From an uncultured Colwellia sp. (lineage in GTDB: Bacteria > Pseudomonadota > Gammaproteobacteria > Enterobacterales > Alteromonadaceae), in contig CAXIBS010000002.1 of the NCBI GenBank assembly GCA_964022585.1, positions 5,102-69,101 of the forward strand: DNA of 64,000 nucleotides, written 5' to 3'. Below, one piece after another: positions 45,671 through 53,534 of the stretch. The notes beneath the pieces are model-generated. The model had not been told where the DNA came from. It ran no database searches and saw nothing but the letters and a program-made list of their open reading frames with translations. The translations under genes were made by a program, and so were the position numbers. Every line of letters starts with the position of its first letter. Position 1 is the stretch's first letter.

Positions 45671-46021
45671 ATGAAAAAAATCTCTCAATTACTTTTGTGT
45701 ACCATACTCTTTTCCACAACATCCAGTTGCACTAGCTTACAGAAATCAATAGGCAGTGATAGCACTACTATGTGGGATTTTGACCATAATGTTCAATTTA
45801 AGAAAACCAAGTTGTCTGATAGGCAATTTACTCTAGAAGTTATTCCCAATAATAAAGTCGGCTTTGAGCAATTAGCTACTTTTTTACTGCGTAAATCTTA
45901 TAGTTTGTGTGGTGGTTACCATTACAAAATTGAGATGCTTCAAGGTATTGAAGGCTTTGATGATAAACGTGCTATGCCTAACTATATATTTCCCTCACTG
46001 ATTGCCAAAATTAAATGTTAA
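45671..46021 (+). CDS. Hypothetical small lipoprotein
   Basis: Signal peptide ending TSSC; RBS AGGTG. Confidence 0.65.
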   Translation: MKKISQLLLCTILFSTTSSCTSLQKSIGSDSTTMWDFDHNVQFKKTKLSDRQFTLEVIPNNKVGFEQLATFLLRKSYSLCGGYHYKIEMLQGIEGFDDKRAMPNYIFPSLIAKIKC

Positions 46022-46297
46022 TGCCGCTAGACATCAATAGTGCGATTATCTCAGCAAGAAAATAGCTCATATCAACTACTCTTCAAATAAGTAAAATATT
46101 AGGGTGTAGAAATAAGCCTCTTTTAATAAGTTGTTTAGATAATAAAATATAACGTCACTTTAGTGCATTGAAGACATTAGCCTAAGGTTTTTTTTCATAT
46201 ATTTTCTAATGAATTGATAAACTGATTTCTGCTTTGATATAGTCATTTAAAGATGCTAATTTGTCGGTGTCCTATCAATTCTATAATTATTGAGCAA

Positions 46298-47240
46298 TCA
46301 AGCTGGTGTTAAGCATTTAAGGAGTATCATGGCTAAAAGGATGTCTATTCCTAAAAAGGTTAAGGAAATTCTAAGGACAGAAGTAGGATTTGGCTGTCCT
46401 GTTCGAGATTGTGGTAATCCATATTTGGAATATCACCATTTTGATCCACCAGTTCACATTATTCCTCATAATAATCCAGATGGGATGATTGCATTATGTG
46501 CACAACACCATAAAAAAGCTGATGGAGGTGCTTATTCGAATGAACAGTTACATGAGTTCAAAAGGAATAAAGTTCATTCAAAAAGTGTACGAGGTAATCT
46601 TGATTGGTTGAGGCGTGACTTACTTTCTATAGTTGGTGGTAACTTATTTTATGAAACCCCAATAGCAGTTCAAATTGATGGTCATAATGTAGTTTCATTT
46701 AAGAGGGATTCTGAAGGATACCATAGGCTCAGTATTTGTATGTTGTCTTTATTGCCAGAAGAAAGAGTAATCATTGAAGAAAATTCTTGGGAAAATATTG
46801 GTAAACCGTTAGATCTTCGCTCTCCTCCTCAAGGTAAAGAGTTAGAGGCTAGTTATAATAACGGAGATTATTTATATTTAAAATTTTCAGAAGTGGTTGA
46901 TGAAATAGCTCTTCAAGAAAAATTTCATATATTACCTAGTGTGAGTACTGAGTTTAAGTTTCCAATCACTGTTGTAGAAATCAATTTTGCAATTGGTGGT
47001 AGCAATATAAATTTCTCCTCTAAAGGAACTCAAGCTTTTGGTCTTAGCGTAAAGCAAAGTGCCATAAGTCATTGTGGCGTCGGTTTTAGCTTAAATTATG
47101 GAATCGACTGGCAACAAAATCCGAAGTGGAAATTAGAAAAAAAATATGAGGTTCGTCTTGGGAATGTTATTAAAGTGGCATTCGGTAAATAATGTATAAG
47201 ACCTTTAAGCGGAGAAAAATAATTGGTTACGTTCCGCTGA
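46298..47240 (+). mobile_element. Probable integron gene-cassette fragment (orphan) with truncated attC-like ends
   Basis: GTTAAGC core-like site at 46308-46314 just before the RBS/ATG; after the stop, GTATAAGACCTTTAAGCGGAGAAAAATAATTGGTTACGTTCCGCTG resembles the left arm of an attC site. Confidence 0.55.
46329..47192 (+). CDS. HNH endonuclease-domain protein
   Basis: CPVRDC...EYHH...N...LCAQHHKK zinc/HNH motif; RBS AAGGAG before ATG 46329. Confidence 0.8.
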   Translation: MAKRMSIPKKVKEILRTEVGFGCPVRDCGNPYLEYHHFDPPVHIIPHNNPDGMIALCAQHHKKADGGAYSNEQLHEFKRNKVHSKSVRGNLDWLRRDLLSIVGGNLFYETPIAVQIDGHNVVSFKRDSEGYHRLSICMLSLLPEERVIIEENSWENIGKPLDLRSPPQGKELEASYNNGDYLYLKFSEVVDEIALQEKFHILPSVSTEFKFPITVVEINFAIGGSNINFSSKGTQAFGLSVKQSAISHCGVGFSLNYGIDWQQNPKWKLEKKYEVRLGNVIKVAFGK

Positions 47241-47374
47241 ATTGATGAAAACTCTAATCTAAACTTCAATTTAACATCAACTATTAATGACCGTAATATA
47301 TCACTAGTCACGTTAATCCTAGCTAACAAACACTAAGCAACACAATGAGTTTATTGTCATTGTATTCGAGAAAT

Positions 47375-47417
47375 AAAAAAGGGCTCCTTTACTTATTATA
47401 AGTAAAGGAGCCCTTTT
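47375..47417. terminator. Bidirectional Rho-independent terminator
   Basis: AAAAAAGGGCTCCTTTACTTAT-T-ATAAGTAAAGGAGCCCTTTT. Confidence 0.88.
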
Positions 47418-47451
47418 GTTTTGTTCTACTTAACTAATAAAAATAGCGAGC

Positions 47452-50250
47452 CTAGCTAGGATCTGCAATTCTTACTGCTGGTGTAGTTAGTGCTTCAGTT
47501 GGTGGTTCAAAACGAGTTAAATCGATACCTTCAACTGCAGACTTGTACTCATCCATAGTAGGGAAACGACCAAGCATAGTAGAAAGAACTACTAGTGGCG
47601 TTGAACCTAATAAAGATTCACCTTTCTTCTCTGCTGTATCAGCAACAACACGGCCTTGGAAAAGACGAGTTGAAGTAGCAATAACCGTATCACCTGGTTC
47701 AGCTTTTTCTTGGTTACCCATACATAAGTTACAACCTGGGCGTTCTAGGTATAAGATGTTTTCATACTTAGTACGTGCAGCATTTTTAGGTGATGCATCA
47801 TCAAATTCAAAACCAGCGTACTTCTCAAGTAATTCCCAGTCGCCTTCAGCTTTAAGTTCATCAACAATATTATACGTTGGTGGAGCAACAACTAACGGTG
47901 CATTAAATTCAATCTTCTGACCTTTAGCTTCCATGTTACGTAACATTTGCGCAATAATTTGCATATCGCCTTTATGTACCATACATGAGCCAATAAAACC
48001 TAAGTCTACTTTCTTGCCGTCATAGTGAGAAACTGGACGAATAACATCATGCGTATAACGCTTAGATACATCTTCGTTGTTTACATCTGGATCAGCAATC
48101 ATTGGCTCAGCGATAGCATCTAAATCAACCAATACTTCTGCGTAGTAGCTAGCAGTGTCGTCTGGTGCTAAAGCAGGGTTAGTACCTGATTTAACTTCTT
48201 CGATACGTTTGTCAGCTAGAGCAATTAAGCCACTAAGCGTTTTAGCTGGATTTTCCATACCCTTGTCGATCATGATTTGGATACGGCTCTTCGCAAGCTC
48301 AATAGACTGAATTAACGTTTCATCGTTTGAGATACAAACAGATGCTTTCGCTTTCATTTCAGCAGTCCAATCGGTAAACGTAAATGCTTGGTCAGCTAAT
48401 AATGTACCAATGTGTACTTCAATTACGCGACCTTGGAATACGTTTTCACCACCAAACTGCTTAAGCATTTGTGCTTGAGTAGCATGAACAATATCACGGA
48501 AATCCATATGATCAGCCATGTGACCTTTAAAGGTAACTTTTACTGATTCAGGAATTGGCATTGCAGATTCACCCGTAGCTAGTGCAATTGCTACAGTACC
48601 TGAGTCAGCACCAAAAGCTACACCCTTAGACATACGAGTATGAGAGTCACCACCGATGATGATAGCGCGGTCATCAATAGTAATATCATTCAATACTTTA
48701 TGAATAACATCAGTCATTGAATGGTAAACGCCTTTTGGATCACGTGCAGTGATTAAACCAAACGCGTTCATAAACGCCATTAACTTAGGAGTGTTTGCTT
48801 GTGCTTTGCTATCCCAAACAGAGGCAGTGTGACAACCTGATTGGAATGCACCATCAACACTTGGAGAGATAGTAGAAGCAGCCATTGCTTCTAATTCCTG
48901 ACACGTCATAGGACCTGTAGTATCTTGAGAACCAACAATGTTCACTTTTACACGAACGTTAGAGCCTGCATGTAATGGCGCTTCTGAAGCAACACCAACA
49001 GCATTACGGTTAAAGATTTTCTCTACCGCTGTTAAGCCTTGGCCTTCATGCGAGATTTCTTTAGATGCTGCGTAAACAACTGGTGCGTCAATACCTAAAG
49101 CTTCAGCTGCAAATGTTTGTAGTTTCTTACCGAAAGTTACAGCATAAGAACCACCCGCTTTCATAAACTCTTGCTTTTGCGGTGTGAATGCAGAAGAGAT
49201 ATCAGCAAGCTCTTGGTCACCGTTAAATAATTTCTGTGCTTTAGTATCGATAGTTAATACAGTACCTGTAGCAACTGAATACGCTTCTTCAAGCACTGCA
49301 TCGCCATTTGCATCAACAACTGCATTACCACTTGCGTCTACTTTCTTAACCCAGTTTTTAAGATCAAGACCAATACCACCTGTTACATCTACCGTTGTAA
49401 GGAAGATTGGCGCTATACCATTAGTACCAGCAACAATTGGTGCAAAGTTAATAAAAGGTACGTATGGGCTTGCTTTTTTACCTGTTAATAGTGCAACGTT
49501 GTTAACACCAGACATACGAGATGAACCAACACCCATAGTGCCTTTTTCAGCAATTAGCATTACTTTCGCGTTAGGATGCTTAGCTTGTAATTCTTTTATT
49601 TCTGCTTGAGCTTCTGGCGTGCTCATACATTGGCCATGTAATTCACGGTCAGCACGAGAATGAGATTGATGACCTGGAGATAATAAATCAGTAGAGATAT
49701 CACCTTCACCAGCAATACAAGTAACTACTTCAATTTTTTCTTCAATTTCAGGCAGCTTAGTGAAAAACTCTGCTTGTGCATAGCTTTCTAAAAGTTCTTT
49801 AGCAATTGCGTTGCCCGCTTTAAATGCAGCTTCAAGACGAGCTGTATCAGCGTCATATAAAAATACTTGTGTTTTTAATACGTCTGCAGCTTGAGTAGCT
49901 AACGCAGCGTTATCACCTAATGCTAAATCAAGTAATACTTCAATTGAAGGACCACCTTTCATGTGAGAAAGTAATTCAAACGCAAATTCAACTGAAATTT
50001 CTGCAACAACAGCTTCACCTAAAATAATTTCTTTTAAGAATTTAGCTTTTTCGCCAGCAGCACTAGTAGTACCAGGCAAAGTGTTATAAATGAAGAAGTT
50101 CAACGAATCTTCACGATTTGCATTCCCTTGATCTTTAATCTGCGCAATAATTTCCGCTAATAACTCAGCACTATCAATTGGCTTAGGCGCTAATCCTAGC
50201 TCCTCTTTACGACTTGCAATTTCTGCTATATATTCTAGGTACAGGCTCAT
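47452..50250 (-). CDS. Divergent long-type aconitate hydratase B / 2-methylisocitrate dehydratase
   Basis: TDLLSP, GSSR, GSQDTTGPMT, GGDSHTR, GSCM, PGCNLCMGNQ motifs. Confidence 0.9.
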   Translation of the reverse strand: MSLYLEYIAEIASRKEELGLAPKPIDSAELLAEIIAQIKDQGNANREDSLNFFIYNTLPGTTSAAGEKAKFLKEIILGEAVVAEISVEFAFELLSHMKGGPSIEVLLDLALGDNAALATQAADVLKTQVFLYDADTARLEAAFKAGNAIAKELLESYAQAEFFTKLPEIEEKIEVVTCIAGEGDISTDLLSPGHQSHSRADRELHGQCMSTPEAQAEIKELQAKHPNAKVMLIAEKGTMGVGSSRMSGVNNVALLTGKKASPYVPFINFAPIVAGTNGIAPIFLTTVDVTGGIGLDLKNWVKKVDASGNAVVDANGDAVLEEAYSVATGTVLTIDTKAQKLFNGDQELADISSAFTPQKQEFMKAGGSYAVTFGKKLQTFAAEALGIDAPVVYAASKEISHEGQGLTAVEKIFNRNAVGVASEAPLHAGSNVRVKVNIVGSQDTTGPMTCQELEAMAASTISPSVDGAFQSGCHTASVWDSKAQANTPKLMAFMNAFGLITARDPKGVYHSMTDVIHKVLNDITIDDRAIIIGGDSHTRMSKGVAFGADSGTVAIALATGESAMPIPESVKVTFKGHMADHMDFRDIVHATQAQMLKQFGGENVFQGRVIEVHIGTLLADQAFTFTDWTAEMKAKASVCISNDETLIQSIELAKSRIQIMIDKGMENPAKTLSGLIALADKRIEEVKSGTNPALAPDDTASYYAEVLVDLDAIAEPMIADPDVNNEDVSKRYTHDVIRPVSHYDGKKVDLGFIGSCMVHKGDMQIIAQMLRNMEAKGQKIEFNAPLVVAPPTYNIVDELKAEGDWELLEKYAGFEFDDASPKNAARTKYENILYLERPGCNLCMGNQEKAEPGDTVIATSTRLFQGRVVADTAEKKGESLLGSTPLVVLSTMLGRFPTMDEYKSAVEGIDLTRFEPPTEALTTPAVRIADPS

Positions 50251-50810
50251 TTGATACTCTCTCTCACTATAAAAATAAGATGCTAATTCAAGATGTTTTA
50301 CGATATTAAATTAGCAGGGATAAAAATTTTGCACCTATTCTACCTGATTTTTTGCTAACTCCTAATCATTTGCTTAAATAAGCACTATTCATAGTACTCA
50401 TAGCTATTAGAAATTATAGTTATGGCAGTTATACCGGTTATTAGCCCCATTAGTAACCGCTTTTATTAGGCTATCTCCATGCCAAAATCATCTTTATTTG
50501 TTCATACAATTAGCTAAGCACTATCTATTTGATCAGCACACAATATTTCTATCGCTAAAATTAAAATATTCCGAGAATGTTTACGTTATAAATACTGCAA
50601 GCTAAATCAAACAGATCTCAATTGTAAAAATTTCACTTAGCAAAGATGAATCAGCATAAGATTTCCGACAATATTTAAATCTCATAAAAATAGACTAGTA
50701 TTATAGTCGTACAAATAAAACGAGATAGCAACACAACCACCTGATAAATAAGCACTATAAACAAAAGACATATTAAAAATAAACAGCGCAACTATTAGCA
50801 GGTAACAATA

Positions 50811-50822
50811 AGTGTCGACAAT
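50811..50822. promoter_or_regulatory. Candidate PrpR-type (GntR) site upstream of acnB
   Basis: AGTGTCGACAAT, 11/12 to the palindrome ATTGTCGACAAT; a second copy ATTTCCGACAAT at 50661-50672. Confidence 0.5.
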
Positions 50823-50942
50823 ATTGTATTATTAAGAGGAATTTACAATCCTAGATACTTAATAGCTTTGTCCTCAATTGGCTCTAAATTTAACCGAGTC
50901 ATCCTGAAAGTGACTAGTGTCTCCAATAAAAAGGTGAATGTC

Positions 50943-53534
50943 GTGCTTCAAGAATATCGTAACCACGTAGCAGAACGTGCAGTAGAAGGTCTAGTACCTA
51001 AAGCTTTAGACGCTGAACAAACAGCAGCATTAGTTGAATTAGTTAAAAATCCACCAGAGGGTGAAGGAGATTTTTTAATTGATTTATTAACAAATCGCGT
51101 ACCTGCAGGTGTAGATGATGCAGCTTATGTTAAAGCAGCCTTTTTAGCTGCAGTTGCTAAAGGTGAAGCGAATTCATCAATATTAAGTGCTGAGAAAGCC
51201 ACTGAATTATTAGGCACCATGTTAGGCGGTTATAATATTCAGCCAATGATTGACCTTTTAGATAATGATGCATTATCTTCAGCAGCTGCACATGGTTTAT
51301 CAAATACCTTATTAATGTTCGATGCTTTCCATGATGTGCAAGAAAAAGCTGAAGCAGGTAATGTTGCAGCGAAACAAGTTATGCAATCTTGGGCTGATGG
51401 TGAGTGGTTTACCTCGAAAGAAAAAGTCGCTGAAAAAATTACAGTTAAAGTATTTAAAGTAACCGGTGAAACTAACACTGATGATTTATCACCAGCACCT
51501 GATGCTTGGTCTCGCCCTGATGTACCATTACACGCTAAAGCGATGCTTAAAATTGCTCGTGACGGTATTAACCCTGAAGAAGACGGCGTTATTGGTCCTA
51601 TTTCTCAAATTGAAGAATTACAAAAAGACGGTATCCCACTAGCTTATGTTGGTGATGTAGTTGGAACGGGTTCTTCTCGTAAGTCAGCTGCTAACTCTGT
51701 TTTGTGGTTTATGGGCGATGATATCCCTTGTATTCCTAACAAACGCAATGGTGGTGTGTGCTTAGGTGGTAAAATTGCGCCTATTTTCTACAACACTTTG
51801 GAAGATTCAGGTGCATTACCTATTGAACTTGACGTTCAAAAAATGCACATGGGCGATATTATCGACATTTACCCATACGAAGGTGTTGTTAAAAATGCTG
51901 CTGGTGAGGTTATTTCAGAATTTGAACTTAGCCCGGTATTATTAGATGAAGTTCGTGCTGGTGGTCGTATTCCACTAATCATCGGTCGTGGCTTAACGGG
52001 TCGTGCTCGTGAAGCATTAGGTTTACCTGAAGCTGATTTATTCGCTAAACAAGTTGCTGTTGCTGATACAGGTAAAGGCTTTACCCTTGCTCAAAAGATG
52101 GTAGGTAAAGCTTGTGGTGTTGAAGGTGTTCGCGCCGGTCAATACTGTGAACCTAAAATGACCACGGTTGGTTCACAAGATACTACTGGACCTATGACAC
52201 GTGATGAGCTTAAAGATTTAGCGTGTTTAGGTTTCTCTGCTGATTTAACTATGCAGTCTTTCTGTCATACTTCAGCTTACCCTAAGCCTGTTGATGTTAT
52301 TACTCACCACACATTGCCTGATTTCATGATGAATCGTGGCGGTGTTTCACTTCGTGTGGGTGATGGTGTAATTCACTCTTGGTTAAACCGTATGTTATTA
52401 CCTGATACTGTTGGTACTGGTGGTGATTCTCATACACGCTTCCCATTAGGTATTTCATTCCCTGCAGGTTCTGGCTTAATTGCTTTTGCTGCAGCGACAG
52501 GCACAATGCCTTTAGATATGCCTGAATCAGTTTTAGTTCGTTTTAAAGGTGAAATGCAGCCTGGCATTACATTACGTGACCTAGTGCATGCTATTCCTTA
52601 TACAGCAATTAAAAATGGTTTATTAACTGTTGAAAAAGCAGGTAAAGTAAACGAATTCTCTGGTCGTGTATTAGAGATTGAAGGTCTTAAAGGTTTAACC
52701 GTTGAGCAAGCATTTGAATTATCTGACGCATCAGCTGAACGTTCAGCTGCAGGTTGTTCAATCAAACTTGAAGAAGATGCCGTAGCTGAATACTTAACGT
52801 CTAACATTGTTATGCTTAAGTGGATGATCAGTGAAGGTTATGGTGACGTTCGCACTATTACTCGTCGTATTAAAGCGATGGAAAAATGGTTAGCGAATCC
52901 TTCACTAATGGAAGCTGATAGCGATGCTGAATATGCTCACATTATTGAAATTGATTTAAATGAAATCAAAGAGCCTATCGTTTGTTGTCCTAACGACCCA
53001 GATGATGCGAAACTATTATCTGATGTTTCTGGTGTTGATGTTGATGAAGTATTTATTGGTTCATGTATGACTAACATTGGTCACTTCCGTGCTGCTGGTA
53101 AACTAATTGAGAAGTTCGGAGGTTCATTACCAACACGTATGTGGGTTACACCGCCAACTAAAATGGATAGCGCACAACTTAAAGACGAAGGTTACTTCAA
53201 TATTTATGGTAAAGCTGGAGCTCGTGTTGAAACTCCGGGTTGTTCACTGTGTATGGGTAACCAAGCACGTGTAGGTGATAATACTACCGTATTGTCTACT
53301 TCAACTCGTAACTTCCCTAACCGCTTAGGAACGGGTGCAAACGTTTACTTAACGTCTGCTGAACTTGCTGGTGTTGGTGCTATCTTAGGTAAGCTTCCAA
53401 GTCCTGCTGAGTATATGGAGTACGCCTCTCAAATTGATGCAACGGCAGCCGATACTTATCGTTACTTGAACTTTGATAAGATGGAAGAATACACGAAGAA
53501 AGCAGATACTGTAATTTTACAAGTAGAAGCTTAA
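50943..53534 (+). CDS. acnB: Aconitate hydratase B (canonical)
   Basis: GTG start giving MLQEYRNHVAERA; ETNTDDLSP, GDSHTRF, GSCMTN, PGCSLCMGNQ motifs. Confidence 0.97.
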   Translation: MLQEYRNHVAERAVEGLVPKALDAEQTAALVELVKNPPEGEGDFLIDLLTNRVPAGVDDAAYVKAAFLAAVAKGEANSSILSAEKATELLGTMLGGYNIQPMIDLLDNDALSSAAAHGLSNTLLMFDAFHDVQEKAEAGNVAAKQVMQSWADGEWFTSKEKVAEKITVKVFKVTGETNTDDLSPAPDAWSRPDVPLHAKAMLKIARDGINPEEDGVIGPISQIEELQKDGIPLAYVGDVVGTGSSRKSAANSVLWFMGDDIPCIPNKRNGGVCLGGKIAPIFYNTLEDSGALPIELDVQKMHMGDIIDIYPYEGVVKNAAGEVISEFELSPVLLDEVRAGGRIPLIIGRGLTGRAREALGLPEADLFAKQVAVADTGKGFTLAQKMVGKACGVEGVRAGQYCEPKMTTVGSQDTTGPMTRDELKDLACLGFSADLTMQSFCHTSAYPKPVDVITHHTLPDFMMNRGGVSLRVGDGVIHSWLNRMLLPDTVGTGGDSHTRFPLGISFPAGSGLIAFAAATGTMPLDMPESVLVRFKGEMQPGITLRDLVHAIPYTAIKNGLLTVEKAGKVNEFSGRVLEIEGLKGLTVEQAFELSDASAERSAAGCSIKLEEDAVAEYLTSNIVMLKWMISEGYGDVRTITRRIKAMEKWLANPSLMEADSDAEYAHIIEIDLNEIKEPIVCCPNDPDDAKLLSDVSGVDVDEVFIGSCMTNIGHFRAAGKLIEKFGGSLPTRMWVTPPTKMDSAQLKDEGYFNIYGKAGARVETPGCSLCMGNQARVGDNTTVLSTSTRNFPNRLGTGANVYLTSAELAGVGAILGKLPSPAEYMEYASQIDATAADTYRYLNFDKMEEYTKKADTVILQVEA

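What the first reader, a model, noticed from the sequence alone, without database searches (positions are those of the whole stretch)
46298..47240. Orphan HNH-nuclease gene that looks like an integron cassette stranded in core genome
Seen: a single HNH gene between a lipoprotein gene and an aconitase terminator. TCAAGCTGGTGTTAAGC (GTTRRRY core at 46308) lies only 14 bp before its ATG. Right after the stop comes GTATAAG-ACCTTTAAGCGGAGAAAAATAATTGGTTACGTTCCGCTG. Known: cassettes are promoterless single ORFs bounded by GTTRRRY and RYYYAAC...attC, and often carry toxins or antiphage genes. From recall, this downstream text resembles the left arm of Alteromonadales attC sites. Inference: this is a cassette moved out of an integron array. 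The downstream attC is only half present, its inverse core is degenerate (AAG for AAC), and no intI is in the window. The protein (Zn-HNH plus about 200 aa of unrecognised C-terminus) is a candidate undescribed defence nuclease.
Basis: partly seen in the sequence, partly recalled or inferred. Interest (0 to 1): 0.7.

Follow-up and report, generated by a model that had tools for sequence, protein, structure and literature searches.

The report
Palindrome-bounded mini-integron carrying HNH nuclease
This lone nuclease gene is a worn-out integron gene cassette, likely an anti-virus gene, that sits inside a small palindrome-bounded DNA module found scattered through related marine bacteria, which would explain how such cassettes come to lie far from any integron enzyme.

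Summary
The 287-aa HNH gene (46329-47192) fills a slot that is empty in 24 of 29 genus-mates, and the 46 bp after its stop are the left half of this genus's attC (best of 2063 gene ends). The site is dead: the AAC core and the right arm are gone. Homologues are real cassettes, pdif passengers and prophage extras. But it is not a bare cassette dropped at a secondary site. It lies in a 1.15-kb unit with a left palindrome plus a conserved 16-mer, a leader, the cassette, a conserved right tail and a right palindrome. The left end occurs exactly in 25 of 55 genus genomes; of 60 copies, 34 are followed by same-strand attC, none by opposite-strand attC, and only 4 keep intI sequence. One copy with this leader is 99.5% identical at two unrelated loci, ending at the palindromes. 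The nearest relative has another gene between the same palindromes. IS91 elements with a tyrosine recombinase integrate into these sites (7 of 9), a candidate enzyme; IS4 does too. Antiphage function is inferred, untested. New variant of a known kind.

The parts
46151..46178 (+). Left palindrome ('palA', 9-10-9 imperfect inverted repeat); left border of the variable unit
   Evidence: Genus-wide repeat; identity with the nearest relative G076 stops at 46179; score 20.5 on an arm profile, third in the genome, though shuffles reach such scores too
46196..46211 (+). Conserved 16-mer ('TAIL') 17 bp after palA; in intI-bearing copies it abuts the stop of a second class of intI
   Evidence: Exact pattern in 25 of 55 genus genomes, reversed-pattern control 0; abuts intI 3' end in 4 of 60 copies
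46212..46308 (+). Leader; holds a sigma-70-like promoter match (46214-46243, 10 of 12, extended -10)
   Evidence: 83% identical over 106 bp (from palA into the leader) to modules in G031 and G013; alignment runs on to the G|TTAA; promoter is a consensus match only, 6 found vs 6.2 expected in the region
46308..46314 (+). GTTAAGC, probable cassette crossover (decayed attI or attC end)
   Evidence: Sequence; equivalent G|TTAA in L223. Not significant alone (attI profile, 262 of 2046 genes do as well)
46329..47192 (+). HNH nuclease gene, 287 aa: Zn-binding HNH domain (res 5-90) plus beta-rich domain of unknown fold (res 95-260); RBS AAGGAG at 46319-46324
   Evidence: C23, C28, H36, H37, C57, H61, D65 invariant in 58 homologues
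47193..47238 (+). Left half of a genus-type attC, inverse core AAC lost, right arm deleted
   Evidence: Rank 1 of 2063 gene ends; BLAST hits to attC repeats in genus-mates G005 and G003; no attC fold
47241..47260 (+). Decayed copy of the module's right tail (the segment that follows the last attC)
   Evidence: 47239-47320 ranks 2 of 2050 positions against 34 right ends, behind another true copy on C173; not listed by the genome-wide HMM
47286..47314 (+). Right palindrome ('palC'), decayed; right border of the variable unit
   Evidence: Identity with G076 resumes at 47303, inside it; weak score alone (7.0); part of the rank-2 match

Best explanation
The gene is a former integron cassette, now immobile, lying in a decayed single-cassette copy of a palindrome-bounded, integrase-less integron module that likely moves as one unit by site-specific recombination, and it likely encodes a stand-alone antiphage nuclease. 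Shown: the unit's anatomy (palA, TAIL, leader, cassette, attC remnant, right tail, palC), its many copies in the genus, one copy at two unrelated loci, and a different gene between the same palindromes in the nearest relative. Inferred, step 1: an integron of a second class, flanked by palA-TAIL after intI and by right tail-palC after its last attC, lost intI, leaving a head that still takes cassettes from an integrase acting in trans. Step 2: a tyrosine recombinase exchanges strands near the central GTG of the ~30-bp palindromes and so moves whole modules; the best candidate is the recombinase of IS91-family elements, which sit in the same sites. Step 3: here the attC lost its core and right arm, fixing the gene, which the leader promoter would express. 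Step 4: the HNH domain would cut DNA once the C-terminal domain senses infection, stopping the phage or killing the cell.
For: Anatomy: 60 non-redundant left ends; 34 have same-strand attC within at most 4 kb, 0 opposite-strand; 28 carry a palindromic repeat otherwise seen in the intI-attI spacer of second-class integrons (random control 2 of 2000); 4 abut an intI 3' end. 34 of 60 have the right tail downstream, 0 on the other strand, 0 of 136 attC collected from intI-linked stretches are followed by it; it follows a G, the attC crossover base, in 25 of 34. One copy has everything including a full integron integrase (L118/L222). Mobility: a 1075-bp unit with the window's leader type is 99.5% identical in G031 and G013 among unrelated genes, ending at palA and at palC's GTGG. 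G076 shares both flanks with the window but holds a 574-aa gene between the palindromes; the outer arms of the two junctions match each other 8 of 9. Pairs sharing a right flank are nearly identical from the central GTG rightwards and at background to its left (6 pairs each site type). L187, L202 and L212 share the head from palA's centre to the attI crossover and then differ. Enzyme: 7 of 9 recombinase-IS91 elements with both ends rejoin to whole 30-bp sites (random 0.5%), three of them module ends. Protein: fold closest to the Cap5 HNH domain (Z 7.7, rmsd 3.0, 80 residues) and McrA; 523 homologues, no conserved neighbour, found in cassettes, pdif modules and prophage extra-gene slots.
Against: Every site in the window is decayed and none is found by blind genome-wide profiles; the arm profile does not beat shuffles genome-wide. 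The attI reading of 46308 is weak. No recombinase family recurs beside the 60 copies and the recombinase-IS91 pair was not found in this genome (84% complete). IS4 elements also insert in palA centres, so the sites may simply be favoured targets. In the G031/G013 pair identity includes palA's left arm, which a cut at the GTG would not predict. Breakpoint pairs are few and related. No empty site with a single palindrome was found. G076's insert has the palindromes but no TAIL. For defence: no PADLOC family matches beyond the HNH stretch (best E 0.0014), only 2 of 93 neighbours are candidate defence genes (a third hit is RpoD), Z 7.7 is below the tool's own caution line of 8, and no expression data cover the gene.
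Confidence: 0.62

Rival explanations
1. Same module, but the palindromes are not recombinase sites: the copies arose by integrase loss and rearrangement, and the palindromes are hairpin-like targets that IS91, IS4 and other elements prefer; their transposases carried the modules along.
Against: A module with no transposase and no IS ends sits at two unrelated loci with borders at the palindromes; the recombinase-IS91 junctions carry a variable 3-bp segment and rejoin to whole sites, unlike the IS91 rolling-circle model read in PMC5714925 passages; palA and palC fold poorly as hairpins in the window.
Confidence: 0.18
2. One reading: a bare cassette inserted by IntI at a chromosomal secondary site (attG), giving a SALIN that then decayed.
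For: GTT at the 5' end, half attC at the 3' end, intI in the genome; the process is shown experimentally (10.1101/2022.09.11.507474, sections 27 and 33 read).
Against: The DNA on both sides of the cassette is not ordinary chromosome but the two ends of a repeated module; the borders against G076 lie 130 bp before and 65 bp after the cassette, in the palindromes.
Confidence: 0.08
3. Module as described, but the protein is not antiphage: a modification-dependent restriction enzyme acting on any foreign DNA, or a selfish or toxic nuclease kept by mobility alone.
For: Next-best folds are McrA, TagI and ScoMcrA; HNH plus reader domain is their layout; defence-gene neighbours are rare.
Against: Domain order matches Cap5 (HNH first); no methyltransferase or antitoxin travels with it; carriage in cassettes, pdif modules and prophage tail-lysis slots is typical of defence genes (own knowledge; integron part from 10.1101/2024.07.02.601686 passages and section 7).
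Confidence: 0.12

Closest known systems
SALIN / CALIN (Loot et al., 10.1101/2022.09.11.507474, abstract and sections 27, 33 read; Cury et al., PMC4889954, passages read)
   Same: Cassette(s) with attC far from any intI, in a genome that has intI elsewhere.
   Different: Here the isolated cassettes come with a repeated head (palindrome, 16-mer, attI-type leader) and a repeated terminal segment, and the whole moves as a unit; the passages read propose attG insertion, intI loss, rearrangement or IS transfer, not such a module.
Acinetobacter dif modules (pdif sites, XerC/XerD; recalled, not read here)
   Same: Accessory gene between two ~28-30-bp recombination-type sites, swapped among strains; the same HNH family is itself a pdif passenger in Acinetobacter.
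   Different: The sites do not match pdif (best 14 of 22 in the window, 0 of 60 copies reach 18); cargo is an integron head with cassettes.
Mobile integrons on transposons (class 1-5; recalled)
   Same: An integron platform carried by an outer mobile unit.
   Different: No transposase or IS ends in the unit; most copies lack intI (56 of 60 have no intI next to the TAIL).
CBASS Cap5 (HNH-SAVED effector; PDB 7rwk, 8fmh)
   Same: N-terminal Zn-binding HNH domain of similar fold (Z 7.7; Foldseek E 0.004).
   Different: No SAVED domain and no cyclase neighbour; C-terminal domain has no match above Z 3.7.
Integron-borne antiphage cassettes of Vibrio cholerae (Sirona, Nemetona, Cernunnos; 10.1101/2024.07.02.601686 section 7) and BRiCs (10.1101/2024.07.02.601719 passages)
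   Same: Small single-gene cassettes, some with HNH-like folds.
   Different: Their sequences were not compared; the text describes Sirona and Nemetona as NinG-like, and the BRiC main text has no mention of HNH.

Membership tests
Integron gene cassette | ORF followed by a complete attC (R'', L'', L', R') folding as a bottom-strand hairpin | tested here: not met
   Only the left half remains; no model hit, no fold. It is a cassette remnant.
Integron gene cassette | 3' sequence homologous to attC of real arrays | tested here: met
   Rank 1 of 2063, 0 of 1000 shuffles
Integron gene cassette | 5' GTTRRRY core complementary to the inverse core | tested here: inconclusive
   GTTAAGC present; two mismatches to the core expected from L010; motif common (63 of 2046); same crossover position in L223
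Integron gene cassette | Homologues in cassette arrays | tested here: met
   attC model hits right after the stop in L023, L024, L075, L078; 7 of 7 core/inverse-core match in L014, L015, L016, L024, L033
SALIN formed by attG insertion | Cassette flanked by ordinary chromosomal DNA at a GWT site | tested here: not met
   Flanks are module ends
CALIN | At least two attC sites, no intI nearby | tested here: not met
   One half site only; other copies of the module are CALINs
pdif module | Flanking 11-6-11 XerC/XerD sites | tested here: not met
Palindrome-bounded integron module (described here) | palA + TAIL at the left end | tested here: met
   Exact pattern match at 46173-46211
Palindrome-bounded integron module (described here) | Right tail + palC after the last attC | tested here: met
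   Rank 2 of 2050 in the position-matched test; missed by the blind HMM
Palindrome-bounded integron module (described here) | Recombination at the palindromes by a named enzyme | not testable with these tools
   Indirect only
HNH (His-Me finger) nuclease | Beta-beta-alpha-metal fold with conserved His/Asp and Zn-binding Cys | tested here: met
   Fold matches; invariant residues; Pfam and NCBIfam give no hit; the roles of the residues are assigned from own knowledge
CBASS Cap5 effector | SAVED domain and a CD-NTase in the operon | tested here: not met
   No SAVED match; no CD-NTase among 93 neighbours
Antiphage defence system | Protects against phage | not testable with these tools
   Needs an experiment

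The most novel reading that the evidence does not exclude
These bacteria have a second tier of gene cassettes: ~30-bp palindromic sites, recombined by the tyrosine recombinase that IS91-family elements carry, move whole integrase-less integron heads with their cassettes between loci and species. This would be a dedicated route that makes CALINs and SALINs and seeds core regions with defence genes such as this new HNH family.
Probability: 0.35. Interest if true: 0.85.

Novelty: new variant of a known kind. Interest (0 to 1): 0.66.

Why it matters
Cassette clusters without an integrase are common, most lack an intI pseudogene, and their origin is open (PMC4889954, passages). Here they have defined, conserved ends, a copy caught at two loci and a candidate enzyme, so the question becomes a simple recombination assay. 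It may also give a role to the little-studied tyrosine recombinase beside IS91 transposases. The protein is a widespread single-gene HNH family with an unmatched C-terminal domain, carried by four kinds of mobile vehicle, and is a ready candidate for a phage-resistance test. A stranded cassette alone would be ordinary.

Tried and rejected
BLAST of the downstream string against the own genome gave nothing significant; the 15-bp hit at window 19395 lies in a coding gene. Full-length attC model and half-site HMMs missed the window site. Upstream string as an attC right arm: rejected. TAIL as the coding end of a decayed intI: rejected, it begins at the stop codon. A fold-based attC detector was too noisy to count with (10 of 86 loci vs 7 of 120 controls); only sites with model hits or perfect cores were used. 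The loose attI pattern (32 of 60) has 18% background and was not used as evidence. Folding the C-terminal domain alone without an alignment failed (pLDDT 28), so its fold search rests on the whole model; absence of a match shows no novelty. Atlas search of that domain gave no usable hit; a Bflower cluster at 0.88 for the whole protein is a lead only. PDB sequence search: one weak HNH hit. The metagenome scan for the right flank returned one stretch, apparently the G076 locus again. Sequencing runs show the same allele in DNA contigs and one related strain skipping 46014-47439, no empty palindrome site; RNA contigs cover only acnB, which says nothing on expression. An automated rejoining of IS91 flanks used wrong offsets and was redone. 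Literature searches listed no paper describing these modules or this protein family; the library lacks most subscription journals, and bioRxiv supplements (closed) or a recalled V. parahaemolyticus integron screen, which did not appear in the listings, could include a homologue.

Full report
Setting. The window is contig C2 of a 3.0-Mb, 36% GC, 84% complete assembly, a marine gammaproteobacterium by its runs, probably a Colwellia (my inference; no call names this genome). The order is pepN, a lipoprotein-like gene, the HNH gene, a shared terminator, acnB (gene names from the translations, own knowledge).

The gene is accessory. In 24 of 29 genus-mate loci the lipoprotein gene ends 121-300 bp from acnB, and none of the 29 has the HNH gene there; four loci show no acnB within 1.5 kb and one, G076, has another insert. 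A full-length homologue was found in 1 of 36 genus-mates, at another locus, and a partial one in a second. Homologues number 523 and span many phyla.

It was a cassette. Genus-mates have clear attC arrays beside intI (43 of 55 genomes have an integron integrase over the cut-off). From them I aligned 121 attC. The 63 bases from the stop match this set better than any of 2063 gene ends in the genome, 33 of 42 columns, and no shuffle comes near. The match stops at the loop; the right arm is missing and the AAC of the inverse core is lost (compare L010). Blind searches miss it and it does not fold, so IntI should no longer move it. Homologues sit in true cassettes in Aliivibrio, Luteimonas, Methylotenera, Pseudomonas and Teredinibacter records, beside pdif sites in three Acinetobacter records, and in prophages just before the lysis genes.

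It is not a bare cassette. The nearest relative G076 is 90-95% identical up to 46179 and again from 47303, with a different 574-aa gene between. Both borders fall in imperfect palindromes of 28-30 bp. The left one, with a 16-mer 17 bp further on, is a dispersed repeat: 38 of 55 genus genomes by BLAST, 25 of 55 by exact pattern, 12 of 200 in the family and 1 of 300 in the order, reversed-pattern controls 0. I fetched the DNA around the genus sites and three sites from another genus, 60 non-redundant copies, the genome's own two left out. 34 have an attC on the same strand within at most 4 kb and none on the other strand; 28 have the palindromic repeats seen in the intI-attI spacer of a second integron class; 4 abut the 3' end of intI. 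Leaders of several attI types follow the same left end. After the last attC comes a conserved 21-bp tail and a second palindrome: 34 of 60 copies, none reversed, none after 136 attC collected from intI-linked stretches; the exact right-end pattern is in 15 of 55 genomes. One copy is complete with a full integron integrase. The window's 47239-47320 matches these right ends second best of 2050 positions, after another true copy on C173, though a blind HMM does not list it. So 46151-47314 is a whole, decayed, one-cassette copy.

The unit moves. A 1075-bp copy with the window's leader type is 99.5% identical in G031 and G013, among unrelated genes, with identity ending at the palindromes. Pairs of sites sharing a right flank agree from the central GTG rightwards and not to its left (6 pairs for each site type; related sequences). 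Three loci share a head from the palindrome centre to the attI crossover and then carry different DNA, which fits cassette exchange in trans. Against this: the G031/G013 identity includes the left arm of palA, no single-palindrome empty allele was found, and G076's insert lacks the 16-mer.

The enzyme is inferred. IS91-family transposase genes with an upstream tyrosine recombinase lie inside sites of this family: joining their flanks restores a 30-bp site in 7 of 9 elements with both ends, against 0.5% for random DNA, and three restore module ends. The three bases next to the element vary among close relatives, as expected of a tyrosine recombinase rather than rolling-circle insertion (inference; IS91 model from PMC5714925 passages). 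But IS4 elements also insert in these centres, no recombinase recurs beside the modules, and this assembly has no such element. The sites are not pdif.

The protein. The model is confident over residues 10-230 (mean pLDDT 83). Residues 5-90 match HNH domains, best Cap5 (Z 7.7) then McrA (6.4); the beta-rich remainder has no match above Z 3.7. Cys23, Cys28, His36, His37, Cys57, His61 and Asp65 are invariant in 58 homologues, so the site looks intact. Pfam and NCBIfam give nothing, PADLOC only weak HNH-stretch hits. No neighbour is conserved; 2 of 93 neighbours scanned are candidate defence genes. I put a stand-alone antiphage nuclease at about 0.6, from the fold and from the vehicles that carry it; integron cassettes are often antiphage (10.1101/2024.07.02.601686, passages and section 7; 10.1101/2024.07.02.601719, passages). 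A promoter-like match in the leader could express it (consensus only).

Against what is known. Isolated cassettes (SALIN) and integrase-less clusters (CALIN) are described, with attG insertion as one shown route. Ten searches of the paper library listed no description of palindrome-bounded integron heads or of this family; the library is partial and supplements were not seen. It works like a dif module whose cargo is an integron head. Verdict: real feature, first reading partly right, new variant of a known kind; module membership about 0.8, movement by a tyrosine recombinase about 0.65, the IS91-linked enzyme about 0.4.

Noticed in passing
L150:2904-4628 (G076:C56): 574-aa gene on the minus strand fills the same slot in the nearest relative; no Pfam, PADLOC or NCBIfam hit.
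   Followed up: partly
G000:C173:2380-4020: Second copy of the module in this genome, better preserved: right end of one unit, palA-TAIL, leader, cassettes, full attC, right tail, palC.
   Followed up: partly
G000:C115:6223-7404: Sedentary intI with attI at the contig end; the array is unassembled from it. C179 holds five attC; lone attC on C12, C5, C51, C211.
   Followed up: partly
L193-L194 (G063:C1:1676500-1698500): Tandem run of at least five modules, each with its own head and cassettes, joined by 45-75-bp linkers between palC and palA.
   Followed up: partly
L200-L210, L283-L286: IS91-family elements of about 2.55 kb with a tyrosine recombinase integrate at the centre of 30-bp palindromes of several spacer types.
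   Followed up: yes
L187, L202, L212, L255: IS4-family element inserted in palA centres with an apparent target repeat.
   Followed up: partly
L152:1324-3340 (G028:C35): A distant HNH gene (33% over the N-terminal domain) is the first cassette of an intact module of this kind.
   Followed up: partly
L276-L280: The left end also occurs in viral contigs, some with attI-type leader and cassettes, so prophages may carry the module.
   Followed up: no
L213-L222: A second intI class (about 43% identical to the C115 integrase) with up to three palindromic repeats between intI and attI.
   Followed up: partly
L167:624-1247 (G020:C1): 207-aa gene resembling a small tyrosine recombinase lies divergent from a module head; another candidate enzyme.
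   Followed up: no
P0115, P0117, P0123: Some homologues end in a SEC-C-like zinc motif in place of the last 20 residues.
   Followed up: no
window 46022-46150: 130 bp shared only with G076 among the relatives inspected, outside the left palindrome; origin unexplained.
   Followed up: no
window 47452-53534: Two divergent aconitase B-like genes (932 and 888 aa).
   Followed up: no
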